From: Escherichia phage RB16
Length of the DNA: 64,000 nucleotides
Direction: 5' to 3' (one strand)
Sequence record: NC_014467.1
Below the pieces are notes generated by a model. That model was not told the DNA's origin. It searched no databases and saw nothing but the letters and a program-made list of their open reading frames with translations. The position numbers and the translations under genes were made by a program. Shown here piece by piece: positions 4,757 through 46,980 of this stretch (its first letter is position 1; each line of letters opens with the position of its first letter).

Positions 4757-4789
4757 TAATGATCTCCATTTTGTAGATATTTATGTAGA

Positions 4790-4960
4790 CCGTGAGCGAA
4801 GCGAACACACGAACGAAGTGAGTGTTTTTTAACTCAACTACATAATTATATATTTATATTTTATATATAGAGAAAAATGTAGTTTTTGGTATAGTTTTTA
4901 ACCAACTGTAAACTATCCGTCTTCGCTTCGCTTGACGGAACTCGCTTCGCTCGTGATCTT
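4790..4960 (+). repeat. repeat cassette copy A: GC-rich inverted-repeat arms flanking an AT-rich core
   Basis: Arms GAGCGAAGCGA...ACGAACGAAGTGAGTG (4794-4824) and TTCGCTTCGCT...TCGCTTCGCTC (4921-4955); core about 90% identical to copy B at 41798-41966. Confidence 0.8.
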
Positions 4961-4970
4961 GAAAAACTAT

Positions 4971-4999
4971 TTGACCCTTTCAATAAATAGGTATATCAT
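4971..4999 (+). promoter_or_regulatory. sigma70-like early promoter (TTGACC-17-TATCAT) in front of the Ip-like gene; an AATAAATA late-promoter-like motif lies in the spacer
   Basis: Hexamer match and spacing; directly downstream of repeat copy A. Confidence 0.45.
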
Positions 5000-5027
5000 A
5001 CCTATACTTTCAAAAGAGATTGAAAAC

Positions 5028-5813
5028 ATGAAATCATTCAAAGAACTACTGTCTGAATCTGTTCAGACCAAAAAATTTGCTAAAACTGTTGATCTGGTTG
5101 ACCGTGGTAATGCTTCAAAAGGTCAGATCGGTTTCCTGCACTTTGCACACGGTGCTGATTACGATGTGTATGCGCCGGACTCTCACGATCTCGCCTACTT
5201 CGGTAAAGGTGTTGTTCGCCTGAAAGGTAAAACCACTGGTAAAACTCAGGCTGCATATGTTGACTGGGCGAAAGGTACGGTTTCTTTCTATAGCGGCGAT
5301 CCGGCAGATGACCTGAAATTCGACAAGCCAGCGAAATTCAAAGGCGCTTCCCTGTACAAAGAAGCCGAAGAAAATCTGGATCTGTATAATCAGTTAGCGG
5401 AAGACTTCGAAATTGATGTACCGATGGATGAAGCACTGGTGAAAGGTAAGGTGTACAAGCTCCCAAGCAACGATATGCGCTTGCTGTATACCGGACGTAC
5501 CAAAAACAAGCCTACAGGTGAATACGCTGTGTTTACGGTTGTAGATGCCTCCGGTAAGCCTCGTCTGGTATCGGGTAAACGATTTACCCAGGAATACAAA
5601 GGCGATATGCTGTCTAAACTGGTTCTCGCTGAATCGGAAGATCTGAACGAGGCCGCTAAAGGCATTCGCGAAAAAGTTATTGCGGTGTTGGTGAAGCGCG
5701 GGTTTAACGAAAAAGATGCAGAAAAGATGGTTGATAAAAACCTAAAAGATGCGATGAAAGTTCGCCCTGGTGCAACTCCAGGAAAACTAGCGGAAATCGT
5801 GAGCACCTTGTAA
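5028..5813 (+). CDS. internal-protein-like basic protein with capsid-targeting leader (Ip-like)
   Basis: N-terminus MKSFKELLSE matches the T4 internal-protein leader pattern MKTYQEFIAE cleaved by gp21 after L/I-x-E; Lys-rich 262-aa product; strong terminator downstream; ORF track gives a longer ORF from 4932. Confidence 0.6.
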   Translation: MKSFKELLSESVQTKKFAKTVDLVDRGNASKGQIGFLHFAHGADYDVYAPDSHDLAYFGKGVVRLKGKTTGKTQAAYVDWAKGTVSFYSGDPADDLKFDKPAKFKGASLYKEAEENLDLYNQLAEDFEIDVPMDEALVKGKVYKLPSNDMRLLYTGRTKNKPTGEYAVFTVVDASGKPRLVSGKRFTQEYKGDMLSKLVLAESEDLNEAAKGIREKVIAVLVKRGFNEKDAEKMVDKNLKDAMKVRPGATPGKLAEIVSTL

Positions 5814-5817
5814 AAAT

Positions 5818-5848
5818 AAAGCCCCTTCCTTTCGGTTGGGGCTTTTTT
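5818..5848. terminator. bidirectional rho-independent terminator (AAAGCCCC-loop-GGGGCTTT + T7), copy 1
   Basis: Hairpin between convergent Ip-like gene (+) and gp2 (-); near-identical hairpin at 42925-42958. Confidence 0.75.
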
Positions 5849-6702
5849 TAATATCGGTTCCAAACTTTTTTCGCGCTGTATGGTTTTCCTTTCGACTGGA
5901 AAGCCTGTGTAGGCAACCAAACTGCTTTCGCCCAGTCTTTTGGGGCTATCTCTGCAAGAGGTGATCGCAGGTGCGCAGGTAAGTATGCTTTGATCATTTG
6001 ATCTGCACCGCGCATCCCTTTCACGTTGTTCCAGTTGATTTTCAATCTGGTTTTGTTTGAAAGGCGATCTGTTGATCCGTATCCACGTTTCAAAAGTTCT
6101 TCTAAAAACTCTTGACGGGCTTTAGGTGGCGCATAGTGCAAGTTCAAACCGTACAGAACTAAATTACCCGCTTTAGAACGTCCTGAACCCAGGAAGATGA
6201 TTAGCGGGAACCGATCCCAGTATGGTAGGGTATCTTTGTATTTCGCGTCATACACGAACGTATACAATCGCCCTGTTGCTGGTTTCGCTACCCTGTGCGT
6301 TTTGATGCTGGTTTTGATGAAGTCACCAAACCAATCGGTTGAATCCTTTTGACGTTTCGCAGCAGAAACACCCACTGTAATTTTCCGTAAACTATTTCGG
6401 AAGTCGTTGATGATGTCAACTGTATGTTTTTTGCGATAGTCATTGCGTTTTCGTCGGGCTTCGGTTTCTGCTGTACGTCGCGAGATTTCATCATCAATCT
6501 GCTGTTTATAGCGGTGCATAGACTTTGTGAACGTTGCGTATGCAATCCCGTTTTCGTCCGCGAATTTTTTGGCTGTCATGCCTTTTAATTTTGCGCGTCT
6601 GAATTTAACACCCAGTTCAACCCATTCACCAAGTTTTCGCTTCGGTGGCGGTTTCGGCTTATCTTCTTCTGCGATGATCTCAAACTCAAATATAAAACTC
6701 AT
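5848..6702 (-). CDS. 2: gp2 DNA end protector protein
   Basis: 284 aa, position and size as T4 gp2; basic N-terminus. Confidence 0.7.
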   Translation of the reverse strand: MSFIFEFEIIAEEDKPKPPPKRKLGEWVELGVKFRRAKLKGMTAKKFADENGIAYATFTKSMHRYKQQIDDEISRRTAETEARRKRNDYRKKHTVDIINDFRNSLRKITVGVSAAKRQKDSTDWFGDFIKTSIKTHRVAKPATGRLYTFVYDAKYKDTLPYWDRFPLIIFLGSGRSKAGNLVLYGLNLHYAPPKARQEFLEELLKRGYGSTDRLSNKTRLKINWNNVKGMRGADQMIKAYLPAHLRSPLAEIAPKDWAKAVWLPTQAFQSKGKPYSAKKVWNRY

Positions 6703-12318: not shown

Positions 12319-12996
12319 ATGAATTACGATAGGATATATAAAGCTCTTATAGATAAGCGGAGGAAAACTCCGCTTAAAGACGGATATAAGGAACATCATC
12401 ACATCATTCCTAAATCTATGGGCGGTAGTGATGATTTTGATAATATGGTGTATTTGACAGCGAGAGAACATTTCGTTGCGCATCTTTTACTCGCTCGTAT
12501 ACATGGTGGTAAGATGTGGTTTGCTGTTGCTATGATGTGTGGGCGTGGATCAAGTAGCGCGAAAGGCGTTGTCCCTACTTCTCGAATATATGAGTTAGCC
12601 AAAAAACGGGTAGCCAATGAAAGAAGTATATTGTTTTCTGGGAAATTACATCCATTATACGGAAAGCCTTGTACAGAACAACGAAGAAAACGCATAGCTG
12701 AAGGACGTAAAGGGAAAACGCATACTCAGGAAACGAAACAGAAAATGTCTGAATCGAAGAAAGGATATAAACATACTCAGGAGACGAAACAGAAAATGTC
12801 TGAGTCACGGAAGAGACAAACACCTCCTACTCTGGGTAAAAAGTTACCTTCTCCATCAATCGAAAAAAGAAAGAAACTTAGTGAGGCTATTAAAAATCAG
12901 CCAATCATCAAATGTCCATATTGCGGGTTAGAAAGTAACAGCAAAGGAAATATGGTGAGGTTTCATTTCGACAACTGCAAATATAGGAAACCATGA
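12319..12996 (+). CDS. HNH homing endonuclease with tandem NUMOD3-like DNA-binding motifs
   Basis: HNH core EHHHIIPKSMGGSDDFDNMVYLTAREHFVAH; repeats GKTHTQETKQKMSESKKG / YKHTQETKQKMSESRKR; C-terminal CPYCG zinc finger. Confidence 0.85.
   Translation: MNYDRIYKALIDKRRKTPLKDGYKEHHHIIPKSMGGSDDFDNMVYLTAREHFVAHLLLARIHGGKMWFAVAMMCGRGSSSAKGVVPTSRIYELAKKRVANERSILFSGKLHPLYGKPCTEQRRKRIAEGRKGKTHTQETKQKMSESKKGYKHTQETKQKMSESRKRQTPPTLGKKLPSPSIEKRKKLSEAIKNQPIIKCPYCGLESNSKGNMVRFHFDNCKYRKP
12721..12815 (+). repeat. tandem direct repeat (about 51 bp x2) encoding the NUMOD3 motifs
   Basis: CATACTCAGGAAACGAAACAGAAAATGTCTGAATC... repeated with few substitutions. Confidence 0.7.
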
Positions 12997-29438: not shown

Positions 29439-31778
<2,340 letters not shown>

Positions 31779-31796: not shown

Positions 31797-33788
31797 ATGG
31801 CTTTACAATCTCCAGGTATTGAAACAAAAGAAACATCGGTACAATCTACCGTTGTTCGAAATTCAACTGGTCGCGCTGCCATTGTTGGTAAATTTTCATG
31901 GGGGCCAGCTTATCAGATCCGTCAGATTTCTAACGAAGTCGAACTGGTAAACTATTTTGGTTCCCCAGACAACCTAACCGCTGATTATTTCATGAGTGCT
32001 GTTAACTTCTTGCAGTACGGTAATGATCTCCGTGTGGTTCGTGTTGTCGATAAAGATGCCGCAAAAAACGCAAGCGCAATTTTTAACCAGATCAAAACAA
32101 CCATTGCTTCGCAGGGTTCCAACTACACCGTTGGCGACGTAATTAAGGTAAAATATAGCAACAACGTAGTTGAAGAAAATGGTAAAGTGTCCAAAGTTGA
32201 CAGTAACGGCAAAATCCTTGCGGTAGTCATCCCAAGCGAAAAAATCGTTGCTCGTGCAAAACAAATCGGGACTTATCCAGATATTTCTACTGGCTGGACT
32301 ACTGAAATCGTTTCTCAGTCTTCCGGTGTGTCTGCGTCAATCACGATCGATGGTATCGAAAGCGATTCTGGTATCACTCTGTTGAACCTGGATATTGCTA
32401 AAGAAACCATTCAAGGAACTGCGTTCCAGACACTGACCCAGAAATACCAGATCCCGTCTGTTGTGGCTCTGTATCCTGGCGAACTGGGTTCTACTGTACA
32501 GGTGGAGATTATCTCCAAAGCTGCTTACGATTCTGGCGCTATGATTTCCGGTTTCCCTTCTGGGATCTCCGTTAAAAACAGCGGTCGCTCTGTGATGACT
32601 TATGGTCCACAGACCGAAAACCAGTACGCTTTTGTTGTGCGTCGTGGTGGTATTGTACAAGAATCTTTCATCGTGTCAACAGAAAAAACCGACAAAGATA
32701 TCTACGGCGTAAACATCTATATGGATGACTTTTTCGCTAACGGTGGTTCACAGTACGTATTCGGTACTTCTATGAACTGGCCTAAAGGCTTCTCCGGTAT
32801 TCTAGAATTTGGTGGTGGTTTGTCCTCAAACGACACCGTAGGCGCTGATGAACTGATGACTGGTTGGGATATGTTCGCAGACCGCGAAGCCCTGCACGTT
32901 CCTCTGCTGATTGCTGGTGCTTGCGCTGGTGAAACTGTAGAAGTAATGTCAACCGTTCAGAAACACGTTATCTCGATCGGTGACGAACGTCAGGATTGTA
33001 CTGTGTTTGTATCGCCTCCGCGTTCTCTTCTGGTGAACATTCCTCTTGCTCAGGCAGTGGATAACATCATTGAATGGCGTATGGGATATACAATCAGTGG
33101 TAACACTCCGGTAGACAACAACCTGAACGTAAGTTCAAGCTATGGCTTCCTGGATGGTAACTATAAATATCAGTATGATAAATACAATGACGTGAACCGC
33201 TGGGTTCCGCTGGCAGGTGATATCGCTGGCCTGTGTGTTTACACTGATAGCGTTGCGCAACCGTGGATGTCTCCGGCTGGTTACAACCGTGGTCAGATCC
33301 GTAACTGCATTAAACTGGCTATTGAACCGCGTACTGCACACCGTGACGCGATGTATCAAGTTCAGATTAACCCGGTAACAGGTTTTGCAGGTGGCTCTGG
33401 TTTCGTTCTGTTCGGTGATAAAACACTGACTAATGTTCCGAGTCCGTTCGATCGTATCAACGTTCGTCGCTTGTTCAACATGATCAAGAAAGACATCGGG
33501 GATAACGCGAAATACAAACTGTTTGAAAACAACGACGATTTCACCCGTGCTTCGTTCCGTATGGATACTGGTCAGTACATGACGAATATTCGTGCGCTGG
33601 GTGGTTGCTATGATTACCGTGTAATCTGCGATATCACGAACAACACGCCAGATGTAATCGATCGTAACGAGTTTGTAGCGACTGTTTACGTGAAACCGCC
33701 ACGTTCTATCAACTACATCACTCTGAACTTCGTAGCAACGTCTACAGGCGCAGATTTCGATGAATTGGTAGGGCCACAAGCCGTATAA
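31797..33788 (+). CDS. 18: gp18 tail sheath protein
   Basis: 663 aa, order, size, N-terminus MALQSPGIETKETS typical of gp18. Confidence 0.95.
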   Translation: MALQSPGIETKETSVQSTVVRNSTGRAAIVGKFSWGPAYQIRQISNEVELVNYFGSPDNLTADYFMSAVNFLQYGNDLRVVRVVDKDAAKNASAIFNQIKTTIASQGSNYTVGDVIKVKYSNNVVEENGKVSKVDSNGKILAVVIPSEKIVARAKQIGTYPDISTGWTTEIVSQSSGVSASITIDGIESDSGITLLNLDIAKETIQGTAFQTLTQKYQIPSVVALYPGELGSTVQVEIISKAAYDSGAMISGFPSGISVKNSGRSVMTYGPQTENQYAFVVRRGGIVQESFIVSTEKTDKDIYGVNIYMDDFFANGGSQYVFGTSMNWPKGFSGILEFGGGLSSNDTVGADELMTGWDMFADREALHVPLLIAGACAGETVEVMSTVQKHVISIGDERQDCTVFVSPPRSLLVNIPLAQAVDNIIEWRMGYTISGNTPVDNNLNVSSSYGFLDGNYKYQYDKYNDVNRWVPLAGDIAGLCVYTDSVAQPWMSPAGYNRGQIRNCIKLAIEPRTAHRDAMYQVQINPVTGFAGGSGFVLFGDKTLTNVPSPFDRINVRRLFNMIKKDIGDNAKYKLFENNDDFTRASFRMDTGQYMTNIRALGGCYDYRVICDITNNTPDVIDRNEFVATVYVKPPRSINYITLNFVATSTGADFDELVGPQAV

Positions 33789-38105: not shown

Positions 38106-39680
38106 ATGTCTAAGAAAAACGAATTGATGGAAAAATGGAACGATCTTCTGGAATCTCAGGAAGGTTTACCGGATATCGCTACCAAATCCAAAAAACAACT
38201 GGTCGCTGCCATTCTGGAAGCACAGGAAAAAGACGCTGAAACCGATCCGGTTTATCGCGACGAAAAAATTGTGGAATCCTTCGGTGGTTTCCTGGCAGAA
38301 GCAGAAATTGCTGGCGATCATAACTATGACCCGACCAACATCGCTTCTGGTAAATCCAGCGGTGCTATCACCAACATCGGTCCTGCTGTAATCGGTATGG
38401 TTCGCCGTGCGATCCCTAACCTGATTGCGTTCGACATTTGCGGTGTTCAGCCTATGACTGGTCCTACTGGTCAGGTGTTCGCTCTCCGTGCTGTCTACGG
38501 TAAAGATCCTCTGGCTGGCGGTACTCCGGCAGATGTTCGTGAAGCATTCCATCCGATGTTTGCCCCGGATACCATGTATTCTGGTGAAGGTGCTCACACT
38601 GCATTCTCGAAAATCACCACTGGTACAGCGATCGCTACTGGCGCTATCGTATACCACATTTTCCAGGAAACTGGTATTGCATACTTCCAGAACGTTACCT
38701 CTGGCAACGTAACTGTAACTGGTGCTGATCCGGCTGCTCTGGATGCTGCTGTAATCGCAGAGAACGAAAAAGGTACTCTGGCTGAAATCTCTGTTGGTAT
38801 GGCTACCAGTGTAGCAGAACTGCAAGAGAACTTCAACGGTTCCAGCTCTAACCCGTGGAACGAAATGGCTTTCCGTATCGACAAACAGGTTATCGAAGCC
38901 CGTAGCCGTCAACTGAAAGCACAGTATTCTGTTGAACTGGCACAGGATCTTCGCGCTGTTCACGGTATGGACGCTGACGCAGAACTGTCTGCAATTCTGG
39001 CAACTGAAATCATGCTGGAAATCAACCGCGAAATCGTTGATCTGATCAACTATACCGCTCAGGTTGGTAAATCTGGTTTCACCCAGACCGTAGGCTCTAA
39101 AGCTGGCTCCTTCGACTTCCAAGATCCGGTAGATATTCGCGGCGCTCGTTGGGCTGGTGAAAGCTACAAGGCTCTGCTGATTCAGATCGACAAAGAAGCG
39201 AACGAAATCGCACGTCAAACAGGCCGTGGTGCTGGTAACTTCATCATCGCTTCCCGTAACGTGGTTTCCGCTCTGGCTCGTATCGACAGCGGCATCACTC
39301 CGGCAAGTCAAGGTCTCCAGAAGACTCTGAACGTTGATACCACGAAAGCAGTATTCGCTGGTGTTCTGGGTGGCACTTACAAAGTGTACATCGACCAGTA
39401 CGCTCGCCAGGATTACTTCACCGTTGGCTTCAAGGGCGACAACGAAATGGATGCTGGTATCTACTACGCGCCATACGTTGCACTGACCCCGCTGCGTGGT
39501 TCTGATCCGAAGAACTTCCAGCCAGTAATGGGCTTCAAAACTCGTTACGGTATCGGTATCAACCCGTTTGCGAACTCTCGCTCTCAGGCTCCGGCAGATC
39601 GTATCACCTCTGGTATGATCAGCAAAGAAATGTGCGGTAAAAACGCATACTTCCGTAAGGTCTGGGTTAAGGGACTTTGA
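38106..39680 (+). CDS. 23: gp23 major capsid protein
   Basis: 524 aa; CGVQPMTGPTGQVFALRAVYGKDP and many other segments match T4 gp23. Confidence 0.97.
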   Translation: MSKKNELMEKWNDLLESQEGLPDIATKSKKQLVAAILEAQEKDAETDPVYRDEKIVESFGGFLAEAEIAGDHNYDPTNIASGKSSGAITNIGPAVIGMVRRAIPNLIAFDICGVQPMTGPTGQVFALRAVYGKDPLAGGTPADVREAFHPMFAPDTMYSGEGAHTAFSKITTGTAIATGAIVYHIFQETGIAYFQNVTSGNVTVTGADPAALDAAVIAENEKGTLAEISVGMATSVAELQENFNGSSSNPWNEMAFRIDKQVIEARSRQLKAQYSVELAQDLRAVHGMDADAELSAILATEIMLEINREIVDLINYTAQVGKSGFTQTVGSKAGSFDFQDPVDIRGARWAGESYKALLIQIDKEANEIARQTGRGAGNFIIASRNVVSALARIDSGITPASQGLQKTLNVDTTKAVFAGVLGGTYKVYIDQYARQDYFTVGFKGDNEMDAGIYYAPYVALTPLRGSDPKNFQPVMGFKTRYGIGINPFANSRSQAPADRITSGMISKEMCGKNAYFRKVWVKGL

Positions 39681-39710
39681 TCCTAAGCTGTTGAAAAACA
39701 ACGACTTTTT

Positions 39711-39772: not shown

Positions 39773-40411
39773 ATGAAACACATCATTTATAAAATAACAA
39801 ACACCATCAATAACAAAATATATGTTGGTGCTCACTCAACCGAAGATATCAACGATTCATACATGGGTTCCGGTATTGCAATCAAAAAAGCGCAAAAGAA
39901 ATATGGTATGGAACATTTCACAAAAGAAATACTTCATGTATTTGATACCCGTGAAGAAATGTATGAGAAGGAAAGGGAAATAGTTGATATTGAATTCATA
40001 AATCGACCAGATACATATAATGCTGGTATTGGTGGTAAAGGTGCTCCAATGGCGTTGATTGGATGGAGTGATGAACAACGCAAGCTGATTTCCGAAAATA
40101 CTTCGAAAGCTATGCAAACTCCAGAAATGCGCGAACGCCTTTCAAAAATAAAAACAGGGAAGAAGCAATCAGAAGAATCCAACAGGAAGCGTTCAGAGAC
40201 TATCAAAGCTATGTACAAGGGTTCTGCATTCGACAGAACCGGATCTAAGCTCACAGACGCGCACAAGGCCAAAATAAGCCGTTCTGTGTCGATAGATGGA
40301 GTTGTTTACGCAAGCGGTTCCGATGCTTCTAAAGCGTTGGGGCTTTCTCGATCTGGCCTTGATTACCGTTTAAAGAGTGACAAATTTCCTGAATGGAAAT
40401 TCGTTGCATAA
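39773..40411 (+). CDS. segD: GIY-YIG homing endonuclease (SegD-like) between genes 23 and 24
   Basis: N-terminal HIIYKITNTINNKIYVGAHST GIY-YIG motif; same position as T4 segD; clear paralogue of the endonuclease at 6699-7388. Confidence 0.85.
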   Translation: MKHIIYKITNTINNKIYVGAHSTEDINDSYMGSGIAIKKAQKKYGMEHFTKEILHVFDTREEMYEKEREIVDIEFINRPDTYNAGIGGKGAPMALIGWSDEQRKLISENTSKAMQTPEMRERLSKIKTGKKQSEESNRKRSETIKAMYKGSAFDRTGSKLTDAHKAKISRSVSIDGVVYASGSDASKALGLSRSGLDYRLKSDKFPEWKFVA

Positions 40412-40449
40412 ATAAACAATATACTCCCTCTAATTCAGGAACCAAAGAA

Positions 40450-41748
40450 ATGAGTGATAAACACTACACAATTCACAAGTTGATGCGTCAGTCTGCGCTT
40501 CCGTCTGGTAAACGCGAAAAGGTTATCAACGAAGCAACAGGCACGACCGATATCAACGTACAGAACACGCGCCCAGAACTGGTTTCTTTGACTCGCGCTG
40601 TGAACAACCTGATCTATCATGAACTGGTTGCTGTACAAGAAACGGATTTACCAGTAGCTACCCTTTTCGGTGTTCGTTATCGCAACCCTAATGGGGACAT
40701 GACTTTCTCCAGCGCTGCAACCTATTCAGGCCGCATATCTGGACGTACAGACATCGACGATATCGATCTGGCTAAGGCATACGTCAAAGGCGATTTATTC
40801 AAGCACGATGTCACTGACGTTGTGTATGAGGTCATCGAACCTGTAAAGCTAAACGCGCTGGATACTGATAAAGACACCGCAATCATGAAAGCTGTGTTCC
40901 AAAGTAAAATTCGTTTGGTTAGCGAAGCCGCAGACACTTCAAAATATGAAACCAGTGAAGATATCGCATCAACCTCTTTCCAGATGGATCGTTGGAACAT
41001 TCCGGTTCGTTCACGTAAGTTTAAAACTGAAATGACCGTGGAATTGATGCAGGATCTGGAAGCAAACCAGTTTGAAGCCGATGGGGTAATTGAAGATATC
41101 CTGGGTACGGTTGCAAGCGAAGAAGTCAACAAAGATATTATTCAGACGCTGATCACCGTTTCCAAACGATATAACGTTGATGGTGTAGTTGTCGATGGTA
41201 TTTTTGACGGTACAACCACATACACTGCGAAGGATGCTCCAGCATTGGGCCGCATACTCTATCAATTAGCGTGCGAAATGGGCCAAGAAATGAATAGAAC
41301 GACTTCATTTGATGCAACCTACGTCCTCGCTAGTGCTCGCGTTGTAGGCGTTCTGGCTGCGTCTGGTTGGATGACCGAAACCGACGAACAACACCCGCTG
41401 GCAACTGGTAAACTTCAAAACGGTTATTATGTCTATACCGACACGAATACACCGTTTGATTATCTGCTTACCGGATGCAAATACGATCTGGGTGATATGG
41501 ATCACGTAGGTTCTCTGTTCTTCACTCCGTACACCGAAGCGGATGATGCAGGTTCAATCAAGGTATCCGTAGATCCTGCATCACTGCAACCGAAAGTTGC
41601 TATTCTGATGCGTTACGGTTTATCTGTGAACCCATACACAACGGAATCCGACTCTGAACGGTTGACCAAAGGCGATGACTGGTCGAATCTGGCTGGTAAA
41701 TCCAAACTCAGTCAAATCGTAGGTATTAAATTACCTAAGCTGGGTTAA
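40450..41748 (+). CDS. 24: gp24 head vertex protein
   Basis: About 432 aa; start at MSDKHYTIHKL after SD (track ORF begins at 40393 inside the endonuclease gene); 7/8 late-promoter-like CATAAATA at 40407. Confidence 0.9.
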   Translation: MSDKHYTIHKLMRQSALPSGKREKVINEATGTTDINVQNTRPELVSLTRAVNNLIYHELVAVQETDLPVATLFGVRYRNPNGDMTFSSAATYSGRISGRTDIDDIDLAKAYVKGDLFKHDVTDVVYEVIEPVKLNALDTDKDTAIMKAVFQSKIRLVSEAADTSKYETSEDIASTSFQMDRWNIPVRSRKFKTEMTVELMQDLEANQFEADGVIEDILGTVASEEVNKDIIQTLITVSKRYNVDGVVVDGIFDGTTTYTAKDAPALGRILYQLACEMGQEMNRTTSFDATYVLASARVVGVLAASGWMTETDEQHPLATGKLQNGYYVYTDTNTPFDYLLTGCKYDLGDMDHVGSLFFTPYTEADDAGSIKVSVDPASLQPKVAILMRYGLSVNPYTTESDSERLTKGDDWSNLAGKSKLSQIVGIKLPKLG

Positions 41749-41797
41749 TCAAGTTTTGAGAAGACCATTATAATAACAAAGATCAAGAAGGTCAAAC

Positions 41798-41966
41798 GAG
41801 CGAAGCGAGTTTTCACGAACGAAGTGAGTGATGGGTACTACTAACTACATAATTATATTTTTATATTTTATATATAGAGAAAAATGTAGTTTTTGGTATG
41901 TTTTTTAACCAGATGTAAACTAACATTCATTCGCTTCGCTCATTCATGTACTCACTTCGTTCGTAG
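41798..41966 (+). repeat. repeat cassette copy B (same element as 4790-4960)
   Basis: Arms GAGCGAAGCGA...ACGAACGAAGTGAGTG and TCGCTTCGCTC...ACTCACTTCGTTCGT flank the shared AT-rich core. Confidence 0.8.
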
Positions 41967-41968
41967 AT

Positions 41969-41996
41969 TTGACTTCTTGATCATGATGGTTATAAT
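41969..41996 (+). promoter_or_regulatory. strong sigma70-like promoter TTGACT-16-TATAAT upstream of uvsY
   Basis: Consensus-like hexamers, 24 nt before uvsY ATG. Confidence 0.6.
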
Positions 41997-42019
41997 ACTA
42001 CTTTGTTTTGAGGTGATTC

Positions 42020-42442
42020 ATGGCTGAACTAAAACTTGAAGATTTACAGGCTGAACTCGAAAAGGATATGTTGATCGACCCTCTGAAACTACAGAGTGAA
42101 TCAGCAGACATTCCTAAGATTTGGTCTAAGTGGCTTCGATATCATTCGAATGCTAAGAAAAAACTGATCCAGCTACAGGCCAGGAAAGAAGCAGAAGTGA
42201 AAGAACGTCTTCTGTATTACACTGGACGGCATGAGACTGAAATGACTGATGTCATTTACACAGGTTCAGGTGAAATTAAGATTGCGATCAATGGCGATCC
42301 GAAAATTGTTGAGGTTAACAAACTGATTCAGTATTTCGAACTGATTGCAGAATTCACCAGTAAGGCGCTGGACATTGTTAAGAACAAAGGATATTCTATC
42401 AAAAATATGTTGGAAATCCGAAAACTTGAGAGTGGTGCATAA
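42020..42442 (+). CDS. uvsY: UvsY recombination mediator protein
   Basis: 140 aa; LEDLQAELEKDMLIDPLKLQSE...WSKWLRYHSNAKKKL...ERLLYYTGR pattern matches T4 UvsY as I recall it. Confidence 0.85.
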   Translation: MAELKLEDLQAELEKDMLIDPLKLQSESADIPKIWSKWLRYHSNAKKKLIQLQARKEAEVKERLLYYTGRHETEMTDVIYTGSGEIKIAINGDPKIVEVNKLIQYFELIAEFTSKALDIVKNKGYSIKNMLEIRKLESGA

Positions 42443-42443
42443 A

Positions 42444-42623
42444 ATGTCAGAACAAGAAGACTGCAAATGTGTGGTTTGTAAAAATCCGATTCCTACTGCA
42501 ACTGGGTTTGTAACTGAATCTGGTCGTGTGTGTGGTGTGATTTGTGCTCAGTATTTGATTGAGCGTAACAAAACCGGATTGAATGAAGCCGACGATCTGA
42601 ACGAAGTTCAAATGTTGTTGTAG
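42444..42623 (+). CDS. small Cys-rich protein (59 aa), uvsY.-2-like by position
   Basis: MSEQEDCKCVVCKNP...CGVICAQ; start abuts uvsY stop; track ORF 42345..42623 extends into uvsY. Confidence 0.5.
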   Translation: MSEQEDCKCVVCKNPIPTATGFVTESGRVCGVICAQYLIERNKTGLNEADDLNEVQMLL

Positions 42624-42639
42624 GTGGAATATGAGCAAA

Positions 42640-42920
42640 GTTGATTCGGGATGTTTCGAAGACGAACACCCAGATTTTTAGGGTAGGTAAAAAGTTGCCA
42701 TAGGCAAGACAAATCAAACTATAGGACAAACTTACGGATAGCCTAACGCCGAGGTGAGAACGTTAACTTTTGTCCGAGGCGGGTTTGAGTTCGAAACGCA
42801 AGGATCGGACGCTCTAAATACTGGTGTACCCCTTGTGGGGCTTGGCTGGCTGATTAATCAGCTTACGCAGTTTAGAATAGCGGTGTCGTCACCGCGTTAA
42901 AAATCAACTATGCTTCAAAA
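42640..42920 (+). ncRNA. candidate structured non-coding region (function unknown)
   Basis: About 280 bp without plausible ORF on the plus strand, several hairpins and a perfect 14-bp palindrome GCTGATTAATCAGC; ends at a strong terminator. Confidence 0.25.
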
Positions 42921-42924
42921 TTAA

Positions 42925-42958
42925 AGCCCCTTCCTTTCGGTTGGGGCTTCTTTTTTAG
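42925..42958. terminator. bidirectional rho-independent terminator, copy 2 of the hairpin at 5818-5848
   Basis: AAAGCCCCTTCCTTTCGGTTGGGGCTT followed by T-run; between convergent plus-strand region and uvsW.1. Confidence 0.75.
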
Positions 42959-43185
42959 AACTTCTCTTCTTCTCCGGTTTCAAGTTCGGCTTTGAGTTCT
43001 TCACGCCGTCCCTTGATCGCGTCACGCATTGAAATGTCATCGGATGCTGCAACTTCAACTTCCTTGACCCGCGTATTGTAATATTTTTCCAACTCTTTCA
43101 AACCGTCCAATGTACGGCACGAAGCAACTTTATTCATGAAATCATCAATTGCGGCTTCGTTAACGAATTCAGTAAAACTTTTCAT
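42955..43185 (-). CDS. uvsW.1: UvsW.1-like small protein
   Basis: 76 aa, directly downstream of uvsW on the same strand (T4 UvsW.1 is about this size). Confidence 0.6.
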   Translation of the reverse strand: MKSFTEFVNEAAIDDFMNKVASCRTLDGLKELEKYYNTRVKEVEVAASDDISMRDAIKGRREELKAELETGEEEKF

Positions 43186-43194
43186 CTTAACCTC

Positions 43195-44694
43195 TTAAAT
43201 TTCTACCTGTTTGATCACGTAGTCGAATCGTTCTTCATTGTAGATCCGCACACGTTCCATAGCATGTTTCATGCCGTAGTTAGTTGCACTATATTTATTT
43301 TTGGCTGTCTTCGACTTCGCCAGCGTTGCCAGGTTATCGACGATATCCCATACAGTTGCAAGCGCTTTCGAACCATGCTTACGCAACACGCGCCCGATCG
43401 ACTGCTTAACAACAACGGCAGATTTGCAAGGGTGTGCAAAAATGATGTGATGCAGGTTCTTGATTGAAATACCTGTACTCAGTACCCCGATCGAACCGAT
43501 TACAATCAAACCCTTTGTTGATTCCGCAATCTTTTTCATTTCGTTGCGGTCGTCAATGTCCGTATCGCCGTTGATCAATACAACGTTGTCATAAACCTTG
43601 CTTAACTTCTCGTACAGCCATTTTCCGTGTTCTTTATACCGGAACATCACGAATGTGTTTTCGTTCTTCTCACGGGCTAATTTAAGCGCTAATTTTAGAA
43701 TCCATGCGTTGCGCCGTGTATGGCTTGTAACGTATTTGATTTCAGTCTGGTAGTCTGCACCCTTCAATTTCTTGATCTCTTCTTCTTTGTACCGAAGGAA
43801 GATTGTGTTAATTTTCAGGTTGGTGACTTGTCCATCATCCATCAAACGACGCGTATCAACTGGTTTAAAGACTTTACCGAACGCACCGATGTATTGCATC
43901 ATGTTCGTTTTCCCTTCTTTCAGGGAACCGGATAAACCCAGTTTGAAAATGCACTGATCCATTGTGTCGATAATCTTTTTGATGCTCAACCCTGTTGATA
44001 GGTGGCATTCATCAACCATCAGGCACATGAACTGCTGGAACCACTCAGCAGGCATTTTAACCGCTGATTGCCAGGTTGAAACATAGATTAGCGCGTTGCT
44101 GTTCTTAGCAGTACCGGAACGAATACCCAACATTGCCGATTTCGGAAACAGTCGATAGTTTGCGATGTCCTCAATCATTTGGTCAACCAGCGCCGTAGTT
44201 GGAACGATAATCAGCACTTTTCCGCTGTAATGTTCCAGACACCAACGGGAGATAAGACCCTGAATTAGAGATTTACCCGCTGACGTTGGCAGGTTCAGAA
44301 CTCCTCGACGGTTTTTGATACCGTGGAATACGGATTCGCGCTGATACCAGTAAGGATCGATCTGTTTGTCACCGTCATAAACTGGATGCTCGTTAACCCA
44401 CTTGTCAAAATCTTCTTGCGTGATATCCTCTGTCTCGTGGATCTTCGGATCTACCCAGATTGAATAACCGCGTGATTCTGCGAATTTTGTTACCAGATAG
44501 GCTAACCCATACGGGAGTTTTCCGTTGTAGTCCATCAGGTAAATGTACCCGTTCCATCCACCATATTTGTATTTGGCTTGATACTGATAGCCTGGAGGCT
44601 GGAATGAAAAATAGTCACGAAGTTCATAGACAATGTTTGCTTCTGCCTGAATCTGTACGTGGCTTGTGTTTAAAAATTTGACTTCAATATCCAC
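43195..44694 (-). CDS. uvsW: UvsW RNA-DNA and DNA-DNA helicase
   Basis: 499 aa; Walker A LPTSAGKSL, DECH box MVDECH, SF2 helicase C-terminal motifs. Confidence 0.85.
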   Translation of the reverse strand: MDIEVKFLNTSHVQIQAEANIVYELRDYFSFQPPGYQYQAKYKYGGWNGYIYLMDYNGKLPYGLAYLVTKFAESRGYSIWVDPKIHETEDITQEDFDKWVNEHPVYDGDKQIDPYWYQRESVFHGIKNRRGVLNLPTSAGKSLIQGLISRWCLEHYSGKVLIIVPTTALVDQMIEDIANYRLFPKSAMLGIRSGTAKNSNALIYVSTWQSAVKMPAEWFQQFMCLMVDECHLSTGLSIKKIIDTMDQCIFKLGLSGSLKEGKTNMMQYIGAFGKVFKPVDTRRLMDDGQVTNLKINTIFLRYKEEEIKKLKGADYQTEIKYVTSHTRRNAWILKLALKLAREKNENTFVMFRYKEHGKWLYEKLSKVYDNVVLINGDTDIDDRNEMKKIAESTKGLIVIGSIGVLSTGISIKNLHHIIFAHPCKSAVVVKQSIGRVLRKHGSKALATVWDIVDNLATLAKSKTAKNKYSATNYGMKHAMERVRIYNEERFDYVIKQVEI

Positions 44695-44765: not shown

Positions 44766-45422
44766 ATGAAAATTGATTACGAATTGGTAGAAGGGTTCCG
44801 TGCTCTGCCTACTAAAGAACAGAAAGGCGCACTGGCTGACTACGCTCAAAGCACCTTCGAAGTAAAACTGAACAAACAAAAATCATTCGATAACATGCTG
44901 GCTGATCTGGAAGCTGCTGTACCAGCGGAAGAAAAACCGGAACTGTTGATTGATTCCCCAGAACCAGAAATAGTTTCGTACACTGGTAGCTCTATGATGG
45001 ATGAACCTGTTGTTAACGCTCCGAACATTCCTGATGTGGTTGTCGATGTGTCGCAGGACTTTATGAATTACGTCAAAGAAGTTGCGCCGGAAGTGGCTGA
45101 CCAGATTCAATTAGTACCTGATGTTGTAGAAGCTCCTGTAACCGCTTCTGACGAGTCCAAAGCTGATACGGCATGGTTGGATGGTTTTAGTCCTACCATC
45201 GTTCTGATGGGGCGTAGCGCTCGTTCTAACGGCTATTATACGTGTCCCTGGTGGATCTATGATTGGATTAAGAAAAATCCAGATTGGTACAAAGATCCTG
45301 ACCAATGTCCACACTACAGCGCACGGGATACCCTGAAATCGCTGGTGTACTACATCAAGCGTGATGGTCAAGTTACTGTGCGTGAAACTCGCAACAGCAG
45401 TTTCGACACCTTCAAGTTTTAG
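44766..45422 (+). CDS. hypothetical protein (218 aa) with C-terminal CPWWIYDWIKKNPDWY motif
   Basis: ORF track; shares the PWWIYD-x-I...DW motif with the ORF at 46477. Confidence 0.55.
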   Translation: MKIDYELVEGFRALPTKEQKGALADYAQSTFEVKLNKQKSFDNMLADLEAAVPAEEKPELLIDSPEPEIVSYTGSSMMDEPVVNAPNIPDVVVDVSQDFMNYVKEVAPEVADQIQLVPDVVEAPVTASDESKADTAWLDGFSPTIVLMGRSARSNGYYTCPWWIYDWIKKNPDWYKDPDQCPHYSARDTLKSLVYYIKRDGQVTVRETRNSSFDTFKF

Positions 45423-46476: not shown

Positions 46477-46980
46477 ATGGCTACTGAAAAATGGACTACG
46501 GTTCACCCTATCCCGTGGCGTAACACCAGCTTTACCTATCTTCCGTGGTGGATCTATGATATCATTGTTGCTGCTAATACGGCAGGTGGAGATTGGCGTG
46601 ATTACGCAGAAGAAAAATATGCGAAAGAATTCGACACGCTGAAACAAGCATATATCGACTATACCGATGTTGATTTCATCGAATCTCGCAACGGCTACCT
46701 GTACAAACTCAGTGATTTTACTCCGGCTGATCCGGTTGTTACTATCACCCCGAAAACTGCCCCTGCTGATTTTAAAGTAGGCGATCCTGACCTTGCTGCA
46801 ACCGATCTGTTTACTATCGATCCGAGCGGTACGGCTATGACTCTGACTGTGGATTCCTCTGGTCATGCGTCGATCGTTGGCGGTAAACTCCACGCTGTAA
46901 GCGCTGGTGATGTTGTTGTAACTGCGACCTCCGGTTCTGTTACTGCAAACCTGACTGTAAATGTTAAAGTTGCTCCATAA
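46477..46980 (+). CDS. protein with N-terminal PWWIYD motif and C-terminal bacterial Ig-like (Big_2-type) domain; possible virion decoration protein
   Basis: C-terminal DPSGTAMTLTVDSSGHASIVGGKLHAVSAGDVVVTATSGSVTANLTVNVKV typical of Ig-like beta-sandwich; late promoter motif upstream. Confidence 0.6.
   Translation: MATEKWTTVHPIPWRNTSFTYLPWWIYDIIVAANTAGGDWRDYAEEKYAKEFDTLKQAYIDYTDVDFIESRNGYLYKLSDFTPADPVVTITPKTAPADFKVGDPDLAATDLFTIDPSGTAMTLTVDSSGHASIVGGKLHAVSAGDVVVTATSGSVTANLTVNVKVAP

What the first reader, a model, noticed from the sequence alone, without database searches (positions are those of the whole stretch)
41749..44694. Synteny break after gene 24: uvsY and uvsW are adjacent and convergent, and T4 neighbours are missing
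In T4 as I recall it, gene 24 is followed by rnlB, hoc, inh and segE before uvsW and uvsY, and uvsY is followed by baseplate hub genes 25-29, 48 and 54. Here uvsY follows gene 24 directly on the same strand, uvsW.1 and uvsW are convergent to it, rnlB is 9 kb further on, and no hub genes follow. The rearrangement boundary coincides with repeat cassette copy B.
Basis: partly seen in the sequence, partly recalled or inferred. Interest (0 to 1): 0.4.

Follow-up and report, generated by a model that had tools for sequence, protein, structure and literature searches.

The report
Known RB43-type gene order, hairpin cassette
The odd gene order after head gene 24 is the normal, already published layout of RB43/RB16-type phages (one flipped block of the T4 map, with the baseplate-hub genes parked elsewhere). 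The repeat at its edge is built from unusually conserved DNA mini-hairpins that deserve their own study.

Summary
The window is phage RB16 or a near-identical Pseudotevenvirus.

The arrangement is real but ordinary:
- It is collinear in about 60 sequenced phages and is annotated the same way in RB43.
- It is published as the "RB43-type topology" (Nolan 2006; Petrov 2010).
- Compared with T4, the block rnlB-hoc-inh-uvsW-uvsY is inverted as a unit. inh, hoc and rnlB are therefore present, not missing.
- uvsW and uvsY are adjacent and convergent in T4 too.
- The hub genes 25-29/48/54 lie about 72 kb away in RB43, outside this window.

The boundary does coincide with a repeat cassette, which has three same-orientation copies per genome, next to genes 3, uvsY and 55. 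I found no sign that it caused the inversion: there is no inverted partner at the other breakpoint, and a Klebsiella relative has the same order without the cassette.

The cassette itself is the interesting part. Two pairs of mini-hairpins (variable stem, tandem G·A, GAA triloop, i.e. d(GCGAAGC)-type) flank an AT-rich core that Nolan et al. scored as a late promoter. Strong sigma-70-type promoters sit beside it.

The same double hairpin, with covarying stems, occurs in unrelated phages, bacteria and archaea. In distant T4-like contigs it sits at gp3|uvsY and uvsW|55 junctions. Its function is unknown.

The parts
38106..39680 (+). gene 23 (major head protein)
   Evidence: tblastn with T4 gp23, 70.5% identity. 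Same position as RB43 gene 23.
39773..40411 (+). seg-like GIY-YIG homing endonuclease gene between genes 23 and 24
   Evidence: Pfam GIY-YIG and I-TevI DNA-binding domain; PHROG homing endonuclease. Present in IME-CF2, absent from RB43. Resembles T4 segD and segE.
40393..41748 (+). gene 24 (head vertex protein). The ORF runs from the first ATG; the true start is probably near 40450.
   Evidence: Pfam Gp23 family E=6e-91. T4 gp24 aligns to 40507-41742. IME-CF2 annotation.
41767..41795 (-). Outward-facing sigma-70-type promoter-like site (TTGACC-17-TATAAT, 11 of 12 matches) reading antisense into gene 24
   Evidence: Consensus scan. Function not shown.
41794..41831 (+). Left pair of mini-hairpins of cassette copy B (AAAC-GA-GC-GAA-GC-GA-GTTT and TCAC-GA-AC-GAA-GT-GA-GTGA). 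The GAA form is on the + strand.
   Evidence: Sequence; inverted-repeat analysis; outer-stem covariation across 118-122 distinct instances.
41843..41922 (+). 80-nt AT-rich conserved core of the cassette, 94% identical to window 4836-4915. It corresponds to the RB43 site scored as late promoter Pl:138424.
   Evidence: Nolan 2006 Additional File 5.
41928..41965 (-). Right pair of mini-hairpins of cassette copy B. The GAA form is on the - strand.
41969..41996 (+). sigma-70-type promoter-like site (TTGACT-16-TATAAT, 11 of 12 matches) 24 nt upstream of the uvsY start codon
   Evidence: Consensus scan. Function not shown.
42020..42442 (+). uvsY (recombination mediator)
   Evidence: Pfam UvsY E=2.5e-36; PHROG 231.
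42444..42623 (+). uvsY.-2 homologue (DUF2685)
   Evidence: Pfam DUF2685; PHROG 1043; T4 uvsY.-2 tblastn hit.
42650..42845 (.). Conserved non-coding segment in the uvsY.-2 to uvsW.1 spacer
   Evidence: 97-99% identical in phages whose flanking genes are about 86% identical. No Rfam or tRNA match. Fold z-score about -2.3.
42917..42954 (.). Bidirectional terminator-like hairpin between the convergent units, 95% identical to 5812-5849
   Evidence: TransTerm terminator 'ORF231w-><-uvsW.1' in RB43 (Nolan 2006 supplement).
42955..43185 (-). uvsW.1
   Evidence: Pfam UvsW-1 E=1e-17.
43195..44694 (-). uvsW helicase
   Evidence: Pfam UvsW_N, ResIII and Helicase_C. T4 uvsW 52% identity.
44766..45422 (+). 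inh (inhibitor of prohead protease)
   Evidence: PHROG 1051 E=2e-69. T4 inh tblastn hit.
46477..46980 (+). Short hoc-like gene
   Evidence: PHROG 11091. Partial T4 hoc hit.
51610..52653 (+). rnlB (RNA ligase 2), the far end of the inverted block
   Evidence: Pfam RNA_ligase and T4_Rnl2_C. T4 rnlB 44% identity.
4757..5027 (+). Cassette copy A, between gene 3 (-) and the ORF200w homologue (+)
5028..5849 (+). ORF200w homologue (261 aa, function unknown) plus a terminator twin of 42917-42954
   Evidence: PHROG 7322.

Best explanation
The window comes from phage RB16 or a near-identical Pseudotevenvirus, and 41749-44694 shows the ordinary 'RB43-type' genome topology.

Relative to T4 and RB49-type phages, two things differ. 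The whole block lying between gene 24 and gene 25 (rnlB/DprA ... hoc, inh, uvsW, uvsW.1, uvsY.-2, uvsY) is present but inverted. The baseplate-hub cluster (25, 26, 51, 27, 28, 29, 48, 54) sits elsewhere in the genome, at 59-66 kb in RB43.

uvsY is therefore the first gene after the late head operon. It forms a small transcription unit of its own. The 271-bp cassette supplies a strong sigma-70-type promoter and a predicted late promoter, and a shared bidirectional terminator closes the unit against the convergent uvsW.1-uvsW unit.

Shown: gene identities, the order, the inversion pattern, and conservation across the genus. Inferred: promoter and terminator function, and the evolutionary direction of the inversion.
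For: - Identity of the phage: 100% identity over 6001 bp to a 176,788-bp IMG/VR genome. RB16 is listed at 176,789 bp (PMC2993671).
- Same order annotated in RB43 and IME-CF2.
- 60 phage records are collinear over at least 80% of the 6-kb query.
- T4 genes map to the window in exactly reversed order with flipped strands: rnlB to 51.6 kb(+), hoc to 46.5(+), inh to 44.8(+), uvsW to 44.7-43.0(-), uvsY.-2 to 42.5(+), uvsY to 42.0(+). There are no hub-gene hits.
- T4 and Krischvirus GEC-3S share the other orientation.
- RB43 hub genes are at 59,152-66,308.
- Promoter-like sites with 11 of 12 matches.
- Late-promoter predictions at all three RB43 cassette cores, and a predicted terminator between ORF231w and uvsW.1.
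Against: - The single-inversion description is only the minimal one. Genes to the right of rnlB (dam, nrdC, 49, nrdD ...) are also reoriented relative to T4, so several events are needed for the whole topology.
- The ancestral state is unresolved. A cyanophage has uvsY co-oriented downstream of the head genes, as here, but with uvsW co-directional.
- Promoter and terminator roles rest on consensus matches and published predictions, not on transcript data.
- Nolan's early-promoter table lists no site in the 1383xx-1386xx range that I searched, i.e. at the uvsY cassette.
Confidence: 0.92

Rival explanations
1. The repeat cassette caused the rearrangement: homologous recombination between cassette copies inverted or moved the block, as proposed for PeSL cassettes in RB49-type phages.
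For: - Cassette copy B fills the left breakpoint exactly.
- All three RB43 copies lie at junctions that differ from T4: 24|uvsY, 3|ORF200w and rnh|55.
- Modules A and B share both the cassette and a 95%-identical terminator.
- PeSL-mediated shuffling is documented in other T4-like phages (PMC2839356, PMC4122927).
Against: - All copies are in the same orientation. Direct repeats give deletions or circles, not inversions.
- There is no cassette or box near the other breakpoint, the rnlB/DprA side at 52-54 kb.
- A Klebsiella relative (RCIP0052) has the same gene order with an unrelated AT-rich spacer at 24|uvsY, so order and cassette are separable.
- More than half of RB43 junctions differ from T4 anyway (118 of 292 ORFs are T4-like), so the coincidence is weak.
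Confidence: 0.1
2. The cassette upstream of uvsY is a replication origin, the RB43-group counterpart of T4 oriF (ori-uvsY). It would have an AT-rich unwinding core bracketed by strand-specific stable DNA mini-hairpins, with an adjacent promoter to supply a primer transcript.
For: - T4 oriF lies at the uvsY promoter.
- The other two copies lie within about 2-3 kb of the positions equivalent to T4 oriE and oriG.
- The core is about 85% A+T.
- d(GCGAAGC)-type mini-hairpins are reported at the G4 origin, RSF1010 ssiA and N4 promoters (PMC13037366).
- In one unrelated phage contig the double hairpin sits between a RecE-like exonuclease gene and a primase-helicase gene.
- T4 oriG has a GAA-triloop hairpin about 20 nt upstream of its Mot box.
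Against: - There are no replication data.
- RB43 lacks MotA and middle promoters (PMC1524935), so the T4 mechanism cannot be simply transferred.
- Positional matches for copies A and C are loose.
- The T4 oriG hairpin is a single case inside a coding region.
- The core is equally well explained as a late promoter.
- Nearest-neighbour folding gives no stability signal.
Confidence: 0.15
3. The unusual order is an assembly or orientation artefact of this one sequence.
For: None found.
Against: The same order occurs in about 60 independently sequenced genomes obtained by Sanger, 454 and Illumina, including RB43, RB16, Lw1, Miller, CfP1 and IME-CF2.
Confidence: 0.01

Closest known systems
RB43-type genome topology (Pseudotevenvirus RB43/RB16; also KP15-type Klebsiella phages)
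   Same: Nucleotide identity of 89-100%. Identical gene order and strands from gene 20 to gene 49. Hub genes are elsewhere. The same cassette and terminator are present.
   Different: Only small indels. There is a seg-like homing endonuclease gene between 23 and 24 that RB43 lacks, and the uvsY.-2 to uvsW.1 spacer has a different, mosaic content.
T4 / RB49-type order (24, rnlB, hoc, inh, segE, uvsW >< uvsY, 25, 26, 51, 27-29, 48, 54)
   Same: The same genes are present. uvsW and uvsY are adjacent and convergent in both. inh sits next to uvsW and hoc next to inh.
   Different: The whole block is inverted relative to gene 24. The hub cluster is detached and internally rearranged: 27(-), 28, 29, 48, 54, 51, 26, 25 in RB43. 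uvsY.-1, 24.2, 24.3 and segE are absent.
PeSL cassettes (promoter-early stem-loop) of RB49/phi1, T4/PST and KVP40/nt-1
   Same: A short conserved intergenic regulatory repeat with a strong sigma-70-type promoter at the edge of a gene module. The repeats bracket modules that differ between phages (PMC2839356, PMC4122927).
   Different: - Only three copies per genome, in core regions rather than hyperplastic regions.
- About 165 bp long.
- No terminator-type G+C stem with a T run beside the promoter.
- Built instead from four GAA-triloop/tandem-G·A mini-hairpins around a late-promoter-like core.
- The PeSL papers do not mention RB43 or RB16.
T4 oriF (ori-uvsY)
   Same: It lies immediately upstream of uvsY, with a promoter reading into uvsY.
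   Different: T4 oriF needs a MotA-dependent middle promoter and a downstream unwinding element (my own knowledge of the Kreuzer laboratory's work). RB43-type phages have no motA. No sequence similarity was found: T4 is absent from the cassette hits.
Mini-hairpin DNA d(GCGAAGC) and hairpin-type initiation sites (G4 origin, RSF1010 ssiA, N4 virion-RNAP promoters)
   Same: Each box contains GCGAAGC or its covariant ACGAAGT, i.e. a C-G-closed GAA triloop on a 2-bp stem. Here it is extended by tandem G·A pairs in the Y-GA-R context and by a covarying outer stem (PMC13037366).
   Different: No known cognate protein. No virion RNA polymerase is annotated in RB43. The boxes come in tandem pairs and inverted pairs. 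Orientation relative to genes is not fixed.

Membership tests
RB43-type (Pseudotevenvirus) genome arrangement | High nucleotide identity to RB43/RB16-group genomes | tested here: met
   94% to IME-CF2, 93.7% to RB43, and 100% to a 176,788-bp IMG/VR genome.
RB43-type (Pseudotevenvirus) genome arrangement | Order 23, 24, uvsY, uvsY.-2 >< uvsW.1, uvsW, inh, hoc ... rnlB on these strands | tested here: met
RB43-type (Pseudotevenvirus) genome arrangement | Baseplate-hub cluster not adjacent to uvsY | tested here: met
   No hub-gene hits in the window. The RB43 hub genes are at 59-66 kb. The rest of this genome was not available to me.
T4-type order | rnlB follows gene 24, and uvsY abuts gene 25 | tested here: not met
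PeSL regulatory cassette | Strong sigma-70-like early promoter | tested here: met
   TTGACT-16-TATAAT and TTGACC-17-TATAAT in copy B; TTGACC-17-TATCAT in copy A. These are consensus matches only.
PeSL regulatory cassette | Terminator stem-loop directly coupled to the promoter | tested here: not met
   The terminator scan lists no such site in 41749-42019. The hairpins are 2-4-bp mini-hairpins without T runs.
PeSL regulatory cassette | Many copies clustered in hyperplastic regions | tested here: not met
   Three copies per genome, next to core genes 3, uvsY and 55.
T4 oriF-type origin | MotA-dependent middle promoter | tested here: not met
   No motA and no middle-promoter consensus in RB43 (PMC1524935). 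The promoter here is -35/-10 type.
T4 oriF-type origin | Origin activity (R-loop, initiation of DNA synthesis) | not testable with these tools
   Needs replication mapping.
Mini-hairpin DNA (GCGNAGC class) | Sequence GCGAAGC, or a covariant with a C-G-closed GAA loop | tested here: met
   Eight boxes in the window.
Mini-hairpin DNA (GCGNAGC class) | Hairpin actually forms, supported by conservation of pairing | tested here: met
   Outer-stem Watson-Crick pairing is 84% and 70% (hairpin 1) and 85% and 58% (hairpin 2), against 27-39% in shuffles. All four pair types occur. Energy models give no signal. Formation in vivo is untested.
N4-type hairpin promoter | Virion RNA polymerase encoded by the phage | tested here: not met
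   No such gene appears in the complete RB43 annotation. This was judged by annotation only.
Any Rfam RNA family | Covariance-model match | tested here: not met
   No match in the window, at gathering scores over the whole window or at E<=1 over 41700-43000. No match covers the motif in 12 other loci at E<=0.1.

The most novel reading that the evidence does not exclude
The repeat at the rearrangement boundary is built from a previously undescribed, cross-domain conserved DNA element. The element is a tandem pair of mini-hairpins, each with a variable 2-4-bp stem, tandem sheared G·A pairs, an R-Y and a C-G pair, and a GAA triloop.

In T4-superfamily phages of several distant lineages the element marks the borders of the uvsY-uvsW-55-47-46 cluster and gene 3. 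It also occurs, often in many copies, in unrelated phages, bacteria and archaea.

On this reading it acts at the DNA level as a structure-specific signal, for example as a replication or transcription initiation site or as a boundary element. In the RB43 group, two inverted pairs bracket a late promoter or unwinding core.
Probability: 0.3. Interest if true: 0.7.

Novelty: already known. Interest (0 to 1): 0.2.

Why it matters
The synteny break itself does not matter beyond correct bookkeeping. It identifies the window as an RB43/RB16-type phage and shows that a T4-based gene map must be inverted here.

What could matter is the cassette. A 24-nt double mini-hairpin is conserved to the letter, with covarying stems, in phages, bacteria and archaea. 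It sits repeatedly at the edges of the recombination and late-sigma gene cluster of T4-like phages. I found no description of it in Rfam or in the searchable literature.

If it is a structure-specific DNA signal, it would give a concrete, testable candidate for how MotA-less T4-like phages start replication or switch transcription. It would also be a natural role for the 'extraordinarily stable' d(GCGAAGC) hairpin.

Tried and rejected
- Rfam at gathering scores on the whole window, at E<=1 on 41700-43000, and at E<=0.1 on 12 other motif loci. Nothing covered the motif; the only hits were an unrelated group II intron and a 6S RNA nearby.
- tRNA/tmRNA scan: none.
- Nearest-neighbour DNA folding of the box pairs gave z-scores of about 0, so energy models do not see these hairpins. 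One attempt failed on a length limit.
- RNA folding of the uvsY.-2 to uvsW.1 spacer gave only z of about -2.3, including the terminator.
- Literature searches by sequence string (GAGCGAAGCGA, ACGAAGTGAG, CGAAGCGA) returned only primers and irrelevant papers.
- A search for RB43 origin literature was uninformative.
- PeSL identity was rejected: the architecture differs and RB43/RB16 are not mentioned in those papers.
- Hammerhead, K-turn, mini-ykkC, boxB, attC, REP/RAYT and IS200/IS605 ends were considered from memory. I dropped them because defining features are absent (a bulge, conserved core nucleotides, extrahelical bases) or because Rfam found nothing.
- A short-peptide reading of the boxes was rejected because the frames are inconsistent between copies.
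- The partial repeat at 32080-32112 lies inside gene 18 by position and was treated as chance.
- Cyanophage S-RIM2 has the gp3-uvsY-uvsW-55 order but no boxes.
Full report
**What the window is**

A 6-kb query around the finding matches 173 phage records. The best are Citrobacter phage IME-CF2 (94%) and RB43 (93.7%), both Pseudotevenvirus, and 60 records are collinear over at least 80% of the query. The same 6 kb is 100% identical to an IMG/VR genome of 176,788 bp. Petrov et al. list RB16 at 176,789 bp (PMC2993671). The window is therefore RB16 or something nearly identical.

**Checking the observation**

ORF listing and family searches confirm every gene call.

| Gene | Coordinates | Strand | Evidence |
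|---|---|---|---|
| gene 24 | ends at 41748 | + | Pfam Gp23 family, E=6e-91 |
| uvsY | 42020-42442 | + | Pfam UvsY, E=2.5e-36 |
| uvsY.-2 | 42444-42623 | + | DUF2685 |
| uvsW.1 | 42955-43185 | - | Pfam UvsW-1 |
| uvsW | 43195-44694 | - | UvsW_N, ResIII, Helicase_C |
| inh | 44766-45422 | + | PHROG 1051 |
| hoc-like (short) | 46477-46980 | + | PHROG 11091 |
| rnlB | 51610-52653 | + | RNA_ligase, T4_Rnl2_C |

A tblastn of 26 T4 proteins against the window finds no homologue of 25, 26, 51, 27, 28, 29, 48, 54, alt or 30. The literal observations hold: uvsY comes directly after 24 on the same strand, uvsW.1 and uvsW are convergent, rnlB is about 9.6 kb on, and there are no hub genes.

The T4 record reads 24(+), rnlB(-), 24.2(-), 24.3(-), hoc(-), inh(-), segE(+), uvsW(+), uvsY.-2(-), uvsY.-1(-), uvsY(-), 25(-), 26(-), 51(+), 27-29, 48, 54(+). 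So uvsW and uvsY are adjacent and convergent in T4 as well.

The T4 neighbours are not missing here. The tblastn table shows them in exactly reversed order with every strand flipped:

| T4 gene | Window position (kb) and strand |
|---|---|
| rnlB | 51.6 (+) |
| hoc | 46.5 (+) |
| inh | 44.8 (+) |
| uvsW | 44.7-43.0 (-) |
| uvsY.-2 | 42.5 (+) |
| uvsY | 42.0 (+) |

That is the signature of an inversion of the whole block between gene 24 and gene 25. Only segE, 24.2, 24.3 and uvsY.-1 have no counterpart.

**The arrangement is standard and published**

- RB43 and IME-CF2 are annotated with the same order.
- A more distant Klebsiella phage, RCIP0052, has it too.
- In RB43 the hub cluster lies at 59,152-66,308 as 27(-), 28, 29, 48, 54, 51, 26, 25. 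That is about 72 kb upstream of uvsY and outside the part of the genome this window covers.
- Nolan et al. [quoted passage not shown]
- Petrov et al. 2010 describe a "unique genome topology" for RB16 and RB43 that is also seen in KP15 (PMC2993671).
- The Lw1 genome note calls it the RB43-like genome organisation (PMC3861415).

**Direction of the change**

- Krischvirus GEC-3S shares the T4 orientation: 24 | DprA-like ... hoc, inh, uvsW, uvsW.1 >< uvsY.-2, uvsY, 25, 26, 51, 27 ... 54, alt.
- A KVP40-type Vibrio phage keeps the convergent uvsY/uvsW pair with other flanks.
- Cyanophage S-RIM2 has 23 ... gp3, uvsY, uvsW, 55, 47, 46, all on one strand.

I cannot say which state is ancestral. Genes to the right of rnlB are also reoriented relative to T4, so the full topology needs more than one event.

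**The boundary cassette**

The 271-bp spacer 41749-42019 is one copy of a repeat.

Copies and distribution:
- RB43 has three copies, all in the same orientation: 24|uvsY, 3|ORF200w and rnh|55.
- RB16, CfP1 and two metagenomic relatives also show three same-orientation copies; Lw1 showed two exact core matches, and its third copy was recovered with the box pattern.
- 62 phage records carry the cassette, with 2-4 places each (mostly 3).
- The window holds copy A (4757-5027) and copy B.

Anatomy of copy B:
- An outward promoter-like site on the minus strand (TTGACC-17-TATAAT, 41795-41767).
- Two boxes on the plus strand (41794-41831).
- An 80-nt AT-rich core (41843-41922), 94% identical to copy A.
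- The two boxes inverted (41928-41965).
- A plus-strand promoter-like site (TTGACT-16-TATAAT, 41969-41996) 24 nt before the uvsY ATG.

Nolan et al.'s supplementary tables score late promoters at RB43 32617(+), 103713(+) and 138424(+). These are the cores of the three cassettes. The tables also list an early promoter to the right of cassette A and a bidirectional terminator between ORF231w and uvsW.1. Modules A and B also end in terminators that are 95% identical.

The most conservative reading is a composite regulatory cassette. It would give uvsY, ORF200w and gene 55 their own early and late promoters at borders between transcription units. This is inferred from consensus matches and published predictions, not from transcript data.

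**Did the cassette cause the inversion?**

I think not.
- The copies are direct, not inverted.
- No box occurs near the other breakpoint.
- RCIP0052 has the same order with an unrelated AT-rich spacer carrying five TAGATCA motifs.

**What the boxes are**

Each box reads N2-4 GA RC GAA GY GA N'2-4. It is a GAA triloop closed by C-G, then an R-Y pair, then tandem G·A/A·G in the Y-GA-R context, then a variable outer stem. Its centre is d(GCGAAGC) or the covariant ACGAAGT. This is the "extraordinarily stable mini-hairpin" reviewed by Hirao (PMC13037366), who notes its occurrence at the G4 origin, RSF1010 ssiA and N4 virion-RNA-polymerase promoters.

Between phages, the two box types are swapped between the right-hand positions.

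**The double box is far more widespread than the cassette**

The pattern GAGCGAAGCGA-N3-9-CGAACGWAGTGAG has 24 fixed bases. I estimated about 0.01 chance matches in IMG/VR; this is a rough estimate of my own.

| Collection | Stretches with a match |
|---|---|
| IMG/VR viral contigs | 52 |
| Bacterial and archaeal genomes | 39 |

- About half of the IMG/VR stretches are in unrelated contigs with 27-70% G+C.
- The genome hits include 16 copies in one Coriobacteriaceae MAG, and also Verrucomicrobia, Flavobacteriales, Saccharibacteria, Agrobacterium, haloarchaea, Altarchaeum and Methanosarcinaceae.

**Evidence that the boxes pair**

Positions outside the pattern covary across 118-122 distinct instances.

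| Position | Watson-Crick, observed | Watson-Crick, shuffled | Maximum shuffle vs observed count |
|---|---|---|---|
| Hairpin 1, outer pair 1 | 84% | 39% | 67 vs 102 |
| Hairpin 1, outer pair 2 | 70% | 27% | 56 vs 86 |
| Hairpin 2, outer pair 2 | 85% | 34% | 56 vs 100 |
| Hairpin 2, outer pair 3 | 58% | 25% | 49 vs 69 |

- All four pair types occur.
- The position 5' of GA has a strong pyrimidine preference.
- G·T combinations are no more frequent than expected among non-pairs (7 of 20, against 34% expected). This fits a DNA hairpin better than an RNA helix.
- Standard energy models give no signal. Hirao's review says the stability of this motif is not captured by such models.

**Context of the motif**

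- About 90% of instances in loci with at most 50% G+C are intergenic.
- The GAA strand is more often the sense strand of co-directional neighbours, 22 against 8.
- Both orientations occur.

**Association with the T4 superfamily**

In distant T4-like contigs the element sits at these junctions:

| Junction | Loci |
|---|---|
| gp3 \| uvsY | L042, L063 |
| uvsW(-x) \| 55 | L025/L122, L041, L160, L198 |
| gp3 \| gene 1 | L050 |
| just after gp46 | L111 |

In several of them two box pairs in inverted orientation flank 60-110 nt, as in RB16. In the cyanophage-type order gp3, uvsY, uvsW, 55, 47 and 46 are contiguous. The three RB43-group cassettes adjoin exactly genes 3, uvsY and 55. This points to an old link between the element and the borders of this cluster. 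The cultured cyanophage S-RIM2 lacks the boxes.

**Function of the hairpin element is unknown**

- An origin role is attractive. T4 oriF is at the uvsY promoter. One unrelated phage has the element between an exonuclease gene and a primase-helicase gene. T4 oriG has a GAA-triloop hairpin just upstream of its Mot box.
- That case rests on loose positional matches and single examples. The core is equally well explained as a late promoter. I rate the origin idea at about 0.15.
- I found no description of the motif in Rfam, in the PeSL papers or by sequence-string searches.
- These searches cover only open-access text, so prior description cannot be excluded.

**Verdict**

The finding as posed is real but ordinary and already known: it is the RB43-type topology, best described as an inverted rnlB-uvsY block with the hub cluster relocated. 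Interest in it is low. The boundary cassette, and above all its cross-domain double mini-hairpin, is the part worth a separate look.

Noticed in passing
window 41794-41831, 41928-41965, 4793-4830, 4917-4957; loci L024-L225: The double mini-hairpin GAGCGAAGCGA-N3-9-CGAACGWAGTGAG is conserved to the letter, with covarying outer stems, in unrelated phages, bacteria and archaea. One Coriobacteriaceae MAG has 16 copies, each capping a different long stem. There is no Rfam or literature match.
   Followed up: partly
window 42650-42845 (and 42826-42916): Non-coding segments between uvsY.-2 and the terminator are 97-99% identical in phages whose flanking genes are only about 86% identical. They are distributed in a mosaic pattern among relatives. 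This could be a small RNA or a mobile mini-module. There is no Rfam or tRNA match.
   Followed up: partly
window 5812-5849 and 42917-42954: The two terminator hairpins are 95% identical. Each closes a module that begins with a cassette copy: cassette A with ORF200w, and cassette B with uvsY and uvsY.-2.
   Followed up: partly
window 39773-40411: A seg-like GIY-YIG homing endonuclease gene lies between genes 23 and 24 and overlaps the first ATG of the gene 24 ORF. It is present in IME-CF2 and others but absent from RB43, Lw1 and Miller. T4 has segD at the same junction on the opposite strand.
   Followed up: partly
L023 (T4 153061-153073, minus strand): The hairpin TACAC-GAA-GTGTA lies about 20 nt upstream of the Mot box of the T4 ori(34)/oriG middle promoter. 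It is the only C-G-closed GAA-triloop hairpin with a perfect stem of at least 5 bp in the 56 kb of T4 that I held.
   Followed up: partly
L009 8691-8994 (Klebsiella phage RCIP0052, 24|uvsY spacer): The gene order is the same, but the spacer is an unrelated 300-bp stretch of about 85% A+T with five TAGATCA (GATC-containing) repeats.
   Followed up: no
L010 about 8850-8880 (Vibrio phage phi-ST2, upstream of uvsY): A single L1-like box (ACGCGAAGCGAAAAAC) sits just after a terminator and upstream of uvsY in a KVP40-type phage.
   Followed up: no
L081 56-133 and 204-233 (Prosthecobacter MAG): A group II intron domain V/VI match (Rfam RF00029) ends about 70 nt upstream of the double hairpin. The same flank recurs in several Verrucomicrobia loci.
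   Followed up: no
window 12709-12810: A tandem duplication of a 51-nt unit at 80% identity, with a third weak copy at 29997.
   Followed up: no
window 38166-39701 (minus strand): A 511-codon ORF runs antisense to almost the whole of gene 23. It is probably a by-product of codon usage.
   Followed up: no
window 46477-46980: The hoc-like gene is only 167 aa, against 376 aa in T4. RB43 annotates it in two pieces.
   Followed up: no
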